A DNA stretch of 64,000 nucleotides, taken from contig NC_090398.1 in the NCBI RefSeq assembly GCF_036365525.1, positions 65,952,369 through 66,016,368 of the forward strand, written 5' to 3'. This document shows positions 584-30,499 of this stretch, in pieces (within the stretch, counting starts at the first letter, position 1; each line of letters opens with the position of its first letter). The position numbers and the translations under genes are program-made. Origin of the DNA: Heterodontus francisci. Lineage: Eukaryota. The notes under the pieces were generated by a model. That model was not told the DNA's origin, did not search any database, and saw only the letters and a list, made by a program, of their open reading frames with translations.

Positions 584-1832
584 TCTGGTATACCAGTGAG
601 TTCACTCTGGGGAGAGACCATTCGCCTGCTCAGAGTGTGGGAAGAGATTCACTCATTCATCCTACCTGCTGTGACATCAGTGATTTCACACTGGCGAGAG
701 ACCGTTCAGCTGCTTAGAGTTGGGAAGTGATTCTGTCAGTCATCCTACCTGCTGATCCAACAGTTACTTGAGACTGGGAAGAGACCGTTCACCTGCTCAG
801 AGCTTGTGAAGAGATTCACTAAGTCATCCCACCTGTTGATCCAACAGTTAGTTGAGACTGGGGAGAGACCGTTCACCTGCTCAGAGCTTGTGAAGAGATT
901 CACTCGGTCATCCTACCTGCTGATACACCAGTGACTTCACACTGGGGAGAAACAGTTCAACTGCTTAGAGTTGGGAATAGATTCCCACAGTCATCCTACC
1001 TGCTGATACAGCAGCGAGTGCACACTGGGGACAGACCGTTAACCTGCTCAGAGTGTGGGAAGAGAATCACTCAGGCATCCTGCCTGCTGCCACAACAGCG
1101 AGTTCACATTGGGGAGAGACAGTTTACCTGCTCAGAGTTGGGAAGAGATTCACTCCGTCATCCTACCGGCTGATGCACCAGTGAGTTCACACTGAGGAGA
1201 GACCGTCAAGCTGCTCAGAGTTGGGAATAGATTCACACAGTCATCCTACCGGCTGATACACTAGCGAGTGCATACTAGGGACAGACCGTTAACCTGCTCA
1301 GAGTGTGGGAAGAGAGTCTCTCCGTCATCCGAGCAGCTGATACACCAGTGAGTTAACGCTTGGGAGAGACGGCTCACCTGCTCAGAGTGTGGGAAGACAG
1401 TAACTTAGTCATCCAAACTGCTGATACACCAGTGAGTTCGCAATGGGGAGAGAGCGCTCACCTGCGAATAGTGTGGGAAGAGATTCACTCAGTCATCCTG
1501 CCTGCTGATACAACAGTGAGTTCACATTGGGGAGAGACCGCTCACCTGCTCAGAGTGAGGGAAGAGATTAATTCAGTCATTCTACCTGCTGATACACCAG
1601 TGAGTTCAAACTGCAGAGAGACCGTTCACCAGCTTCGAGTTGAGAAGAGACTTTGTCAGTCATCCTACCTGCTGATCCACCAGTTACTTGACACTGGGGA
1701 GAGACTTTTCACCTGCTCAGAGTGCGGGAAGAGATTCACTCAGTCATCCTACTTGCTGATATGCCAGTGAGATCACACTGGGGAGAGACAGTCAAACTGC
1801 TCACAGTGTGGGAAGAGATTCACTCAGTCTTC

Positions 1833-2090
1833 ATAAAATAAAAGCAAAATACTGCGGATGCTGGAAATCTGAAACAAAAACAAGAAATGCTGGAATCACT
1901 CAGCAGGTCTGGCAGCATCTGTGGAAAGAGAAGCAGAGTTAACGTTTCGGGTCAGTGACCCTTCTTTGGAACTCACTTCTTCGGACCCTTCCATAGAAGG
2001 GTCACTGAACTGAAACGTTAACTCTGCTTCTCTTTCCACAGATGCTGCCAGACCTGCTGAGTGATTCCAGCATTTCTTGTTTTTGTTTCA
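1833..2090. mobile_element. Short inverted-repeat insertion, Penelope-like terminal-repeat derived, with target-site duplication
   Basis: ~96-bp arms at 1870-1965 and 1995-2090 are near-perfect reverse complements around a ~30-bp spacer. ttcactcagtcttc is duplicated at 1819-1832 and 2087-2100. The arm contains gaagggtcactgacccgaaacgttaac...gatgctgccagacctgctgag. Confidence 0.75.
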
Positions 2091-27083: not shown

Positions 27084-30000
27084 GAGAGAGACCGTCAAAC
27101 TGCTCTGATTGTGGGAAGAAATTCTCTCAGTCATCCGACCTGCTGATACACCAGTTACTTGACAATGGGGAGAGACCGTTCACCTGCTCACAGTGTGGGA
27201 AGAGATTCACTCAGTCTTCCTACCTGCTGATACACCAGCGAGTTCACACTGGGAAGAGACCGTCAAAATGCTCAGAGTGTGGGAAGCGATTCACACAGTC
27301 ATCCTACCTGCTGATACACCAGCGAGTGCATCTTGGGGTGAGACCGTCAAACTGCTTTGAGTGTGGGAAGAAATTCTCTCAGTCATCCTACCTGCTGTTA
27401 CACCAGTTACTTGACACTGGGGATAGCCTGCTCAGAGTGCGGGAGGAGATTCACTCAGTCATCCTACCTGCTGATATGCCAGTGAGATCACAATGGGGGG
27501 AGACCCTTCACCTGCTCACTGTTCGGAAGCGATTCTCTCAGTCATCCGACCTGCTGATGCAACAGTAAGGTCTCACTGGGGAGAGACCATCAAACTGCTC
27601 TGTGTGTGGGAAGAGATTCTCTCAGTTATCCTACCTGCTGATACACGAGTGAGTTAACGCTGGGGTGAGACGGCTCACCTGTTGAGTGTGGGAAGAAAGT
27701 AACTCTGTCATCCAACCTGCTGATACACCAGCGAGATCACACTGGGGAGAGATCGTTCAGCTGCTCTGTGTTTGGAAAGAGAATCATCTCAGTCATCCTG
27801 CCTGCTGATGCAACAGCGAGTTCGCACTGATGAGAGACCATTCACCTGCTCAGAGTGTGGGAAGAGATTCACTCAGTCATCCTCCCTGCTGATACTACAG
27901 CGAGTTCACACCAGGACGAGACCGTTCACCAGCTCAGAGAGTGGGAAGAGATTCACTCAGTCATCCTACCTGCTGATACAGCAGTGAATTCATACTGGGG
28001 AGAGACCGCTCACCTGCCCAGAGTGTGGGAAGTGATTCACGCAGTCATCCTATCGGCTGAAACACCAGCGAGTTCACACTGGGGAGAGACCGTTCACCTG
28101 CTTAGAGTGTGGGAGGAGATTCACTCTGTCATCCTACCTGCTGAAACACCAGTGTGCTGTCACTGGGGCGAGACGGCTCACCTGCTCAGAGCGTGAGAAG
28201 AGATTCACAACGTCATCCTACCTGCTGATACACCAGTGAGTTCACACTGGGGAGAGACCGTTCATCTGCTCAGAATTTGGGAAGAGATTTACTCTGTCAT
28301 CCTACCTGCTGATACACCAGCGAGTTCACACTTGGGAGAGACCGTTCACCTGCTCACAGTGTGGGAAAAGATTCACTCAGTCTTCCAACCTGCTGATACA
28401 CCAGCGAGTTCACACTGGGAAGAGACCGTCAAAATGCTCAGAGTGTGGGAAGCGATTCACACAGTTATCCGACCTGCTGATACAACAGCGAGTTCACACT
28501 GGGGAGAAACGTTCACCCGCTCAGAGTTGGGATTCGATTCACACAGTCGTCCAACCTGCTTATACACCAGCGAGTGCATCCTGGGGAGAGACCGTCAAAC
28601 CGCTCTGAGTGTGGGAAGAAATTCTCTCAGTCATCCTACCTGCTGATATACCAGTTACTTGACACTGGGGAGAGTTCTGCTCAGAGTGCGGGAGGAGATT
28701 CATTCAGTCATCCTACATGCTGATACACCAGCGAGTTCACACTGGGGAGAGACCATTCACCTGCTCAGAGTTGGGAAGCGATTCACTCTGTCATCCTGCA
28801 TGCTGATACACCAGTGAGTTCAGCCTGGGGAGAGACCGTTCACCTGCTCAGAGTTCGGGAAGAGATTCACTCAGTCATCCTTCCTGCTGATATGCCAATG
28901 AATTCAAACTGAGGAGAGACCGTTCACCTGCTCAGAGTTGGGAAGAGATTCACTCAGTCATCCTACCTGCAGATACACCAGTGACTTCATCCTGGGGAGA
29001 GACCGTTGACCTGTACAGAGAGTGGTAAGAGATTTACTCAGTCATCCGACTTGCTGATACACCAGCGAGTGCACACTGTGGAGAGACCGTTCACCTGCGC
29101 AGAGTGTGGGAAGAGATTCACTCTGTCATCCTACCTGCTGATGCACCAGTTACTTGACACTGGGGGAGACCGTTCACCTGCTCAGAGTTCGGGAAGAGAT
29201 TCACTCAGTCATCCTTCCTGCTGATACACCAGTGAATTCAAAACTGAGGAGAGACCGTTCACCTGCTCAGAGTTGGGAAGAGATTCACTCAGTCATCCTA
29301 CCTGCTGATACACCAGTGTGTTCATCCTGGGGAGAGACCGTTGACCTGCACAGAGAGTGGTAAGAGATTTACTCAGTCATCCGACTTGCTGATACACCAG
29401 CGAGTGCACACTGTGGAGAGACCGTTCACCTGCGCAAAGTGTGGGAAGAGATTCACTCAGTCATCCTCCCTGCTGATACACCAGTGAGTTCACACTGGGG
29501 GAAGACCGTCAGACTGCTCTGAGTGTGGGAATAGATTCTCTCAGTCATCCTACCCGCTGTTGCACCAGTTAACGCTGGGGGGATACGGCTCACCTGTTGA
29601 GTGTGGGAAGACAGTAACTCTGTCACCCTACCTGCTGATACAGCAGTGAATTCAGACTGGGGAGAGACCGCTCACCTGCTCAGTGTGTGGGAAGTGATTC
29701 ACTCAGTCATCCTACGTGCTGATACGCCAGTGAGTTCACACTGGGGTGAGACCATTCACCTGCTCAGAGTGTGGTAAGAGATTTACTCATTCATCCTACC
29801 TACTGACCCATCAGCGAGTTCACAATTGGGAGAGACCATTCACCTGCTCAGCGTGTGGGAAGAGAATCACTCAGTCATCCTACCTGCTGATACACCGGTG
29901 CATTCTGTCTGGGGAGAGACCATTCAGCTGCACAGCGAGTGGGGAGAGATTCACTCGGTCATCCTACCTGCTGATAAACCAGTGAATTCATACTGAGGGG

Positions 30001-30499
30001 AGACTACTCACCTGCTCAGATTGTGGGAAGTGATTCACTCAGTCATCCTACCTGCTGATACACCAGTGAAGTCAGACTGGGGAGGGACCGTTCACCTGCT
30101 CAGAGTGTAGGAAGAGATTCACTCAATCATCCTACCTGCTGATACACCATTGAATTCATACTGGGGGGTGACTGCTCACCTGCTCAGATTGTGGGATGTG
30201 ATTCACTCAGTCATCCTACCTGCTGATACACCAGTGAAGTCAGACTGGGGAGGGACCGTTCACCTGCTCAGAGTTGTGAAGAGATTCACTCAGTCATCCT
30301 ACGTGTTGATACACCAGTGAGTTCACACTGGGAAGAGAGCGTTCACCTGCTCAGAGTGTTGGAAGAGATTCACTCAGACATTCTACCTGCTGAGACACCA
30401 ATGTGTTCACACTGAGGAGAGACCGTTCACCTGCTGAGAGTGTGGGAAGAGATTCACTCAGTCATTCTACTTGCTGTCACAACAGCGAGTTCACAATTC

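What the first reader, a model, noticed from the sequence alone, without database searches (positions are those of the whole stretch)
584..30497. A ~30-kb satellite built from C2H2 zinc-finger coding units
Seen: roughly 320 head-to-tail 84-bp finger units, all close to one consensus ([10 protein letters not shown]), with no reading frame longer than a few fingers. The same defects (CGA>TGA, gagttggg frameshift, H>N in gttaacgctggg, QLLDTGE) recur dozens of times. Known: poly-ZnF genes normally have tens of fingers, and the PRDM9 array evolves as an 84-bp minisatellite. Inference: a coding module has become a self-amplifying satellite that kept expanding after losing its frame. It could be inert heterochromatin, a donor reservoir for gene conversion into functional ZNF genes, or a small-RNA source targeting ZNF transcripts. 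This is the best candidate for an undescribed system in the window.
Basis: partly seen in the sequence, partly recalled or inferred. Interest (0 to 1): 0.75.

Follow-up and report, generated by a model that had tools for sequence, protein, structure and literature searches.

The report
Satellite DNA made of dead zinc-finger units
About 30 kb of this 6-Gb vertebrate genome is a tandem array of 328 mostly broken copies of an 84-base zinc-finger coding unit, one array of a satellite family that reaches about 250 kb elsewhere; it likely grew by unequal exchange after the unit stopped coding and is probably inert repeat DNA.

Summary
Window 580-30497 holds 328 head-to-tail 84-bp C2H2 finger units on the + strand. 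Only a 256-bp hairpin repeat, a 20-bp insert and a 2.3-kb LINE fragment interrupt them. Only 17 of 322 complete units are intact fingers. The consensus itself carries TGA where the R of HQRVH should be.

Variation is flat across codon positions, and zinc-ligand codons vary as much as any others, so there is no coding constraint. Recent 7-15-unit duplications (96-99% identical) carry the same stops and frameshifts, so amplification continued after the frame was lost. A second copy of the locus on an unplaced scaffold is collinear at about 99% but has 547 units. All the differences are whole-unit indels.

A paralogous scaffold carries two arrays of about 250 kb each with the identical consensus, and 87% of their units have TGA. 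The unit is 93% identical to the consensus finger of the genome's intact ZNF genes, yet forms its own lineage. No long tracts are shared with 12 sampled genes.

Verdict: a real satellite family derived from a ZNF exon, in a satellite-rich region. It is most likely inert. The origin is unusual but the mechanism is ordinary. RNA output could not be tested.

The parts
580..1832 (+). Array segment 1: about 15 finger-derived 84-bp units. The array begins in mid-unit at consensus column 44.
1833..2088 (.). A 256-bp near-perfect hairpin repeat inserted into a unit, with a 12-bp target duplication (cactcagtcttc at 1821-1832 and 2089-2100). The C2240 copy has it at the same place.
   Evidence: Sequence. 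Gap in unit hits, with unit positions repeated on both sides. DNA fold of -123.5 kcal/mol, z -24. The same 251-bp gap in C2240.
2089..24773 (+). Array segment 2, the main block of about 270 units. It contains a 20-bp non-unit insert at 4648-4667.
10438..19670 (+). The younger central zone of the array. It holds 7-15-unit duplications at 96-99% identity and none of the column-17 deletions seen in the outer parts. Most of the length difference from the C2240 copy lies here.
13876..14725 (+). A run of ten near-identical 85-bp units. Each has a 1-bp insertion (a frameshift) and an H-to-Q change at the first zinc-binding histidine.
24774..27097 (-). A LINE fragment inserted in the array. Its 364-aa stop-to-stop frame (25292-26383) matches reverse transcriptase. 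The C2240 copy has it at the same place.
   Evidence: Pfam RVT_1 at E 5e-37. A 2326-bp gap in C2240.
27098..30497 (+). Array segment 3: about 41 units, ending in mid-unit.
30498..39900 (.). C-rich low-complexity repeats (units of the CCACTCCCCTCC type) that abut the array. They are not finger-derived.
   Evidence: GC 0.57-0.65, GC skew down to -0.89. No unit hits.
39926..52559 (.). An unrelated 122-bp satellite in two blocks (39926-44035 and 46177-52559), split by a LINE whose 609-aa RT frame lies at 44359-46185 on the minus strand.

Best explanation
This is non-coding satellite DNA whose 84-bp unit is a C2H2 zinc-finger coding unit taken from the genome's own large ZNF gene family, and it likely expands and contracts by unequal exchange or slippage between units and is probably inert heterochromatic DNA.

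Shown:
- The unit is a finger-plus-linker codon block, 93% identical to the consensus of intact genic fingers.
- The array no longer codes and shows no coding constraint.
- Its units form one lineage, apart from genic fingers.
- Multi-unit blocks and single broken units were duplicated after they had acquired stops and frameshifts.
- Two copies of the locus differ only by whole numbers of units.
- A paralogous locus holds arrays of about 250 kb dominated by the stop-bearing variant.

Inferred:
- The in-frame 84-bp periodicity of a ZNF exon makes it a ready-made minisatellite, as in PRDM9.
- Once one copy escaped selection, nothing capped its length.
- Repeated unequal exchange, plus a segmental duplication with an inverted flank, then built the present arrays.
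- The array has no sequence-specific function.
For: Identity of the unit:
- The consensus reads [27 protein letters not shown], and Pfam zf-C2H2 matches.
- It differs at 6 of 84 columns from the consensus of 85 intact fingers from 10 intact ZNF genes of the same genome. The closest single genic finger seen is 94% identical.

No longer coding:
- 17 of 322 units are intact, 174 have stops and 106 have frameshifts.
- Variability by codon position is 0.126/0.112/0.106, against 0.088/0.096/0.155 in genic fingers. At ligand codons it is 0.110 against 0.005, and at DNA-contact codons 0.116 against 0.271.

Amplified after breaking:
- Eight recent duplicate blocks share 12-34 disabling defects, with 1-6 private to each copy.
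- Ten 85-bp frameshifted units lie in a row.
- TGA 142 against CAA 3 at the CpG codon, while the other CpG is kept in 210 of 322 units.
- TGA/CGA needs 29 changes on a tree built without that codon, against 80.7 when shuffled (minimum 68).

Single lineage: gene and satellite labels need 3 changes among 707 tips, against 81 when shuffled.

Copy-number instability:
- C2240:355716-403991 has 99%-identical flanks and the same two insertions, with 547 units against 328.
- 312 unit pairs align at about 0.96-1.0. There are 9 blocks (16 units) found only in the window and 17 blocks (235 units) found only in C2240. Of those 235, 216 lie opposite window 12.6-18.5 kb.

A family beyond the window:
- All 9 sampled 10-kb stretches of C754 between 130 and 382 kb, and all 5 between 1050 and 1295 kb, are 75-99% units.
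- The C754 consensus is the identical 84-mer, and 1351 of 1557 units carry TGA.
- The flank C754:124628-128860 is the reverse complement of window -3655..572 at 94.5% identity.
- Among the 100 listed of 521 exact hits of a diagnostic 27-mer, chromosome-scale contigs contribute only the 14 in this window, 2 in C34 and 1 in C40.

Context:
- 5 of 10 sampled 10-kb stretches within 564 kb of the window are 100% other satellites.
- The flanks hold LINE fragments.
- No remnants of a ZNF N-terminus lie next to the arrays.
Against: - 'Inert' is an inference from lack of constraint and from context. No chromatin, methylation or RNA data were available.
- Runs guessed to be RNA from the same sample hold array-like contigs, so transcription is not excluded.
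- The exchange mechanism was not observed. Whole-unit indels would also arise from replication slippage or from assembly collapse or expansion.
- C2240 may be a haplotig, a recent paralogue or an alternative assembly of one locus. Its differences from C28 lack a transition bias in the flanks too (40 ts against 69 tv), which hints at some consensus error in one contig.
- Only 10-12 of the hundreds of ZNF genes were compared.
- The 84-column tree has weak branch support.
- 421 of the 521 27-mer hits were not listed, so the contig distribution is incomplete.
Confidence: 0.82

Rival explanations
1. The array is a functional non-coding locus. Its transcripts or small RNAs would act on the many ZNF mRNAs that share finger or linker words with it. 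Alternatively, the array would nucleate the kind of heterochromatin that marks ZNF 3' exons in mammals, or would serve a centromere-related role.
For: - 1-17% of the 24-mers in the finger regions of 12 intact genes occur exactly in the window's array, so cross-matching small RNAs are possible in principle.
- The array lies in a block more than 1 Mb long that is rich in satellites.
- ZNF274/SETDB1 and ATRX mark ZNF 3' exons in human cells (PMC2999557 and PMC4939920; search listing and abstract starts only).
Against: - No constraint of any kind is visible on the unit.
- Units are about 79% alike, with no conserved box beyond what they inherited from the finger.
- The family sits at one ancestral locus and its paralogue, not at every chromosome.
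- No RNA evidence could be obtained.
Confidence: 0.1
2. The array is a reservoir of finger sequence that is copied by gene conversion into functional ZNF genes.
For: Two exact hits of the satellite-type 27-mer (CGA form) lie in intact ZNF genes on C34. One gene (L048) has a 54-nt exact match with the C754 sample, slightly longer than its best match with the other genes (52 nt).
Against: - Gene and satellite units separate with 3-4 label changes among 707 tips.
- The longest exact gene-satellite matches are 25-56 nt, against 39-74 nt between genes. They are longer in 1 of 12 genes only.
- The satellite-specific states are rare in 85 genic fingers (Y codon 2%, TGA 1%).
- A donor that is 95% broken would be deleterious.
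Confidence: 0.03
3. The array is an assembly or consensus artefact: a short ZNF exon inflated by mis-assembly.
For: - Differences between the C28 and C2240 copies lack transition bias even in unique flanks, which suggests imperfect polishing.
- Array length differs between the two copies.
- C754 and C2240 are unplaced scaffolds.
Against: - Units are individually distinct (about 79% pairwise), and 312 of them recur in the same order at about 99% in a second contig, with the same two transposon insertions.
- Contigs of a DNA run lie on all 30 bins of window 1-20000, with pieces of 145-497 letters carrying 0-3 differences. That run may come from the assembled sample and is not independent.
Confidence: 0.03
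4. It is a working giant poly-zinc-finger gene, or a cluster of whole ZNF pseudogenes duplicated gene by gene.
For: The units match zf-C2H2. 108 units keep CGA.
Against: - No frame runs longer than 3 clean units, and only 17 of 322 units are intact.
- The zinc ligands are kept in only 65-76% of units.
- Nothing resembling the N-terminal or spacer parts of the genome's ZNF genes lies inside or beside the array. The only interruptions are insertions.
Confidence: 0.01

Closest known systems
PRDM9 zinc-finger array, the 'coding minisatellite' (PMC3890296; title and abstract start seen in the search listing)
   Same: An 84-bp finger unit repeated head to tail. Copy number and unit order change by whole units.
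   Different: By recall, PRDM9 arrays have roughly 8-20 units, stay in frame and are under positive selection at DNA-contact codons. Here there are 328-547 units per copy, and about 3000 per C754 array by length. 95% of units are broken, and there is no excess variation at contact codons (0.116 against 0.122 at other codons).
Classical satellite DNA families, as reviewed in PMC12692304 (section 4.1 read) and PMC5615363 (passages only)
   Same: Long head-to-tail non-coding arrays. Local segmental duplications. Partial array-specific homogenisation. Transposon insertions. A neighbourhood of other satellites.
   Different: The sources that section 4.1 lists for satellites are transposons, rDNA spacers, micro- and minisatellites and older satellites. 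A protein-domain coding unit is not among them. 'Zinc' occurs 0 times in the 2017 review's main text and once, in an unrelated reference, in the 2025 one.
Intact poly-ZnF genes of the same genome (for example the 10-18-finger open frames on C34, C32, C7, C22 and C9)
   Same: The same finger and linker. Nucleotide consensus is 78 of 84 identical. 24-mers are shared.
   Different: The genes have 300-640-aa open frames with a non-repeat N-terminal part. Their ligand codons are almost invariant at 0.005. They lack the TGA and Y-codon states.
Macrosatellites that carry genes (D4Z4/DUX4 type; recalled, not searched)
   Same: Tandem arrays whose unit derives from protein-coding sequence.
   Different: Those units are kilobases long and hold a whole open reading frame. 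Here the unit is a single 28-codon domain and is dead.

Membership tests
Satellite DNA | Head-to-tail tandem repetition of one unit, all in one orientation | tested here: met
   328 of 328 significant unit hits lie on the + strand and are contiguous except for 3 insertions.
Satellite DNA | Long arrays (tens of kb to Mb) present as a family in the genome | tested here: met
   30 kb here, 48 kb on C2240, and two blocks of about 250 kb on C754 (by sampling: 14 of 14 stretches inside the blocks are 75-99% units).
Satellite DNA | Non-coding, with no protein-level constraint | tested here: met
   17 of 322 units are intact. Variability is flat across codon positions and ligand codons.
Satellite DNA | Copy-number turnover and array-wise homogenisation (concerted evolution) | tested here: met
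   Whole-unit indels between the two copies of the locus. Window and C754 labels need 37 changes against 205 when shuffled. TGA is in 87% of C754 units against 44% here. Whether C2240 is an allele is not known.
Satellite DNA | Heterochromatic packaging or cytological block | not testable with these tools
   Indirect only: 5 of 10 neighbouring samples are other satellites. CpG o/e is 0.36, like the flanks.
Functional C2H2 poly-zinc-finger gene | C2H2 finger plus TGE(K/R)P linker with a 28-codon period | tested here: met
   Consensus translation. Pfam zf-C2H2 and zf-H2C2_2.
Functional C2H2 poly-zinc-finger gene | One continuous open reading frame through the fingers | tested here: not met
   At most 3 clean units in a row. 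174 units have stops and 106 have frameshifts, of 322.
Functional C2H2 poly-zinc-finger gene | Zinc ligands conserved, with a purifying-selection pattern | tested here: not met
   C3, C6, H19 and H23 are kept in 76, 65, 66 and 67% of units. Ligand-codon variability is 0.110 against 0.005 in genes.
Functional C2H2 poly-zinc-finger gene | Non-repeat N-terminal exon or part upstream of the fingers | tested here: not met
   tblastn of 8 gene N-termini against 20 kb upstream and the C754 flanks finds nothing below E 0.1 outside the arrays. Sensitivity is limited.
PRDM9-type coding minisatellite | In-frame array with excess variation at DNA-contact codons | tested here: not met
   Contact codons 0.116, other codons 0.122. 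In genic fingers contact codons are 0.271.
piRNA or small-RNA source locus | Abundant small RNAs mapping to the array | not testable with these tools
   No small-RNA data. No run on record as RNA.

The most novel reading that the evidence does not exclude
A zinc-finger exon has run away into a satellite of several hundred kb that is transcribed. Its RNAs or small RNAs share exact finger and linker words with hundreds of ZNF mRNAs. The dead array would then act as a family-wide regulator or heterochromatin nucleator of the ZNF gene family. This would be a natural read-out of what ZNF 3'-exon heterochromatin normally prevents.
Probability: 0.06. Interest if true: 0.75.

Novelty: new member of a known kind. 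Interest (0 to 1): 0.38.

Why it matters
It documents, unit by unit, the passage of a protein-domain coding repeat into bona fide satellite DNA. One locus keeps a mixture of CGA and TGA units. Its paralogue is swept by the stop-bearing unit and is about eight times longer.

This adds protein-coding internal repeats to the recognised sources of satellites. It also gives a concrete picture of the instability that poly-ZnF exons carry once selection is lifted.

For genome annotation it is a warning. Such arrays match zf-C2H2 hundreds of times and can inflate ZNF gene counts in large genomes of this kind. Mechanistically nothing new is required.

Tried and rejected
- RNA. No RNA holder is listed. 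Three runs guessed to be RNA from the same sample (X5-X7) have contigs at 95% likeness or more on 28-29 of 30 bins of window 1-20000. Their summed depth relative to the DNA run X1 is about 7-9 in some array bins, 0.2 at the hairpin repeat and 0.004 at the left flank. The runs are only guessed to be RNA, contig depths cannot rank expression, and the contigs may come from the C754 arrays. The control lay on window 24001-44000 (other satellites plus the LINE) did not complete. No conclusion on transcription.
- Higher-order repeat. No lag from 1 to 149 stands out (mean identity 0.792-0.810). The 10-kb samples of C754 show only irregular local duplications.
- Rfam. No family reaches its gathering score in window 1-31000.
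- Cross-species presence. An off-frame 170-aa translation of the array found 4 proteins at E of 0.001 or below. All are short frameshifted ZNF-like models, one named from a catshark, at 35-45% identity. None is a long array. This is uninformative about the satellite in other species.
- Earlier scan notes. There are none for this genome or sequence, and 8 word hits are unrelated.
- Literature. Searches found no description of a zinc-finger-derived satellite. Subscription journals and Repbase-type libraries were not searchable, so 'not in print' holds for these searches only.
- Parent gene. No single finger above 94% identity was found among 12 genes.
- Transition/transversion ratio. It is about 0.53 among units (1027:1949), 0.57 between the two locus copies and 0.58 in their flanks, against 1.2 in genic fingers. 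This is unexplained. It may partly reflect consensus error between contigs, but that cannot explain the between-unit spectrum.
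Full report
**1. What is there**

The window is G000:C28:65952369-66016368 (+ strand) on a 74.9-Mb contig of a 6.01-Gb genome in 2306 contigs.

TRF reports an 84-bp array at 585-24773 (288.4 copies, 79% matches) and at 27086-30495 (40.9 copies). With the unit as query, nhmmer finds 328 hits on the + strand between 580 and 30496. It finds none elsewhere in the window, and only 4 noise hits (E of about 9) on the minus strand.

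The array is interrupted three times:
- 1835-2085 is a 256-bp near-perfect hairpin repeat with a 12-bp target duplication.
- 4648-4667 is a 20-bp insert.
- 24774-27097 is a LINE fragment whose 364-aa frame matches RVT_1 at E 5e-37.

**2. State of the units**

A wraparound alignment gives 328 units, 322 of them complete.
- Mean identity to the consensus is 0.885. All-pairs identity is 0.792.
- The consensus reads [27 protein letters not shown], so it carries a stop itself.
- Of the 322 units, 174 have a stop, 106 have a frameshifting indel, and 17 are intact fingers.
- No more than 3 consecutive units are free of both stop and indel. The longest stop-to-stop frames (217, 197, 195 aa) run mostly in the two off-frames, which are poor in stop codons by composition.

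**3. No coding constraint**

I compared the units with 85 intact fingers parsed from 10 intact ZNF genes of the same genome (open frames of 340-642 aa).

| Measure | Satellite units | Genic fingers |
|---|---|---|
| Variability at codon positions 1/2/3 | 0.126 / 0.112 / 0.106 | 0.088 / 0.096 / 0.155 |
| Variability at ligand and core codons | 0.110 | 0.005 |
| Variability at DNA-contact codons | 0.116 | 0.271 |

In the satellite, the remaining codons vary at 0.122. The zinc ligands survive in only 65-76% of units.

**4. Origin**

The satellite consensus differs from the genic consensus at 6 of 84 columns (12, 25, 43, 53, 61, 81). The Y-codon state is present in 2% of the genic fingers and the TGA state in 1%. 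The closest genic finger seen is 94% identical.

I built a FastTree of 707 units: 322 from the window, 300 of 1557 sampled from C754, and 85 genic.
- Gene and satellite labels need 3 changes, against 81 when shuffled (minimum 75).
- Without codon 21 the figure is 4 changes.

The satellite is therefore one lineage that budded from this ZNF family. With 84 columns individual branches are weak, so the test rests on label counts.

No remnant of the genes' non-repeat N-terminal part lies next to the arrays.

**5. Amplification after the frame was lost**

- At the CpG codon 21 there are 142 TGA, 108 CGA and only 3 CAA. Independent deamination would give TG and CA about equally. The unit's other CpG is intact in 210 units.
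- On a tree built without that codon, the TGA/CGA state needs 29 changes, against 80.7 when shuffled.
- CGA and TGA units carry the same five other satellite-specific states and are equally broken. The stop therefore arose inside an already separate, amplifying lineage.
- The central zone (10438-19670) contains duplicated blocks of 7-15 units at 96-99% identity. In eight such pairs, 12-34 disabling defects are shared and 1-6 are private to each copy.
- At 13876-14725 a single 85-bp unit, frameshifted and with a ligand lost, is repeated ten times.
- The column-17 deletion is found only in the outer parts of the array and never in units 108-230, so the array is layered.

**6. A second copy of the locus**

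The unplaced scaffold C2240 carries the same locus at 355716-403991.
- Its left flank is 99% identical, and it has the same hairpin and LINE insertions.
- It has 547 units against 328.

A unit-level alignment pairs 312 units in order, mostly at 0.96-1.0. It leaves 9 blocks (16 units) found only in the window and 17 blocks (235 units) found only in C2240. Of those 235, 216 lie opposite window 12.6-18.5 kb. The placement of gaps by my scoring is heuristic.

Every difference is a whole number of units. This is the expected signature of unequal exchange or slippage, which is an inference.

Whether C2240 is the other haplotype, a recent paralogue or an alternative assembly is open. Its substitutions against C28 lack a transition bias even in the flanks (40:69), which suggests some consensus error.

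**7. The family beyond the window**

The 1.8-Mb scaffold C754 holds two blocks.
- All 9 sampled 10-kb stretches between 130 and 382 kb are 75-99% units, as are all 5 between 1050 and 1295 kb.
- Samples at 382, 450, 600, 800 and 1000 kb have none.
- The two blocks are 93-98% alike over kilobases.
- Their consensus is the identical 84-mer. TGA is present in 1351 of 1557 units, CGA almost never, and 41 units are intact.
- The flank C754:124628-128860 is the reverse complement of window -3655..572 at 94.5% identity. The loci are therefore paralogous, with the flank inverted relative to the array.
- A very young 173-bp repeat (12.9 copies, 99% matches), which matches window 435-572 at about 81%, lies beside it.

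A diagnostic 27-mer has 521 exact hits in the genome. Among the 100 listed, chromosome-scale contigs contribute the 14 in this window, 2 in ZNF genes on C34 and 1 fragment on C40. The other 421 hits were not listed.

**8. Surroundings**

Downstream in the window lie 9 kb of C-rich low-complexity repeats, a 122-bp satellite split by a LINE, a 71-bp satellite and GT/GA-rich tracts.

Of 10 sampled 10-kb stretches within 564 kb on either side, 5 are entirely other satellites, with periods of 198/132, 20/39, 57, 66 and 66 bp. CpG o/e in the array (0.36) is like that of the flanks (0.30-0.48). This is a satellite-rich, gene-poor neighbourhood.

**9. The functional ideas**

*Conversion donor.* The longest exact gene-satellite matches are 25-56 nt, against 39-74 nt between genes. 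They are longer in 1 of 12 genes only. The tree separates the two classes. The idea is not supported in this sample.

*Small-RNA source.* 1-17% of genic 24-mers occur in the array, so cross-matching is possible. However, no run on record as RNA was available, and the control lay never ran (and repeats). The idea remains untested.

**10. Comparison with what is known**

The nearest known things are:
- The PRDM9 coding minisatellite, which has the same 84-bp unit and whole-unit turnover but is short, in frame and selected (PMC3890296, listing only).
- Ordinary satellite DNA. Two satellite reviews do not list protein-domain coding repeats among sources (PMC12692304, section 4.1 read; PMC5615363, passages only).

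Seven searches found no zinc-finger-derived satellite. Subscription literature and repeat libraries were out of reach.

**11. Verdict**

This is a real satellite family of unusual origin and ordinary mechanism, and it is most likely inert. The assignment of the genome to cartilaginous fish is only a recalled impression from the finger motif plus one named catshark hit. It is not used in the argument.

Noticed in passing
window 1833-2088: A 256-bp near-perfect hairpin repeat (about 100-bp arms, DNA fold -123.5 kcal/mol, z -24) with a 12-bp target duplication. Contigs of the DNA run pile up on it far more than on anything else laid (summed depth 679,256 in its bin), so it is a very abundant element of this genome. 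No Rfam family matches it.
   Followed up: partly
window 56018-56894, minus strand: Two adjacent open frames (141 and 165 aa) match the first and second halves of the rhodopsin-type 7TM receptor profile (7tm_1, E 3.7e-8 and 8.7e-6). This looks like a receptor gene or pseudogene split by a frame break, sitting between satellites.
   Followed up: partly
window 580-30497, and C28 against C2240: Substitutions among units show no transition bias (1027 ts : 1949 tv). The same holds between the two copies of the locus (78:137) and in their unique flanks (40:69), whereas genic fingers give 443:364. Unexplained. Part of it may be consensus error in one contig.
   Followed up: partly
L018 2534-4769 (G000:C754:122534-124769): A very young 173-bp tandem repeat (12.9 copies, 99% matches). 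Part of its unit is homologous (about 81%) to window 435-572, the last bases before the array. A second satellite appears to be forming from the flank of the first.
   Followed up: partly
window 30498-39900: About 9 kb of C-rich (GC up to 0.65, GC skew -0.89) degenerate CCACTCCCCTCC-type repeats directly abut the array. They give spurious open frames of up to 1205 aa. The C2240 copy has them at 93.5% identity.
   Followed up: no
window 39926-44035 and 46177-52559; 54470-55260: Unrelated satellites with 122-bp (and 487-bp higher-order) and 71/212-bp units. The 122-bp array is split by a LINE with a 609-aa RT-bearing frame (44359-46185, minus strand).
   Followed up: no
L046 and L048 (G000:C34:18025001-18029000 and G000:C9:120499501-120503500): In two intact ZNF genes the open frame runs on past the last good finger into frameshifted finger sequence (...HTGDRHSPAQSV...). 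Short dead finger tails behind live genes therefore exist in this genome.
   Followed up: no
L067, L065, L071-L073 (C28, -50 kb, -200 kb, +164 kb, +264 kb, +564 kb from the window start): Whole 10-kb samples are single satellites with periods of 20/39, 198/132, 57, 66 and 66 bp. The 20/39-bp one has CpG o/e of 1.83. The window lies in a mosaic of satellites more than 1 Mb long.
   Followed up: no
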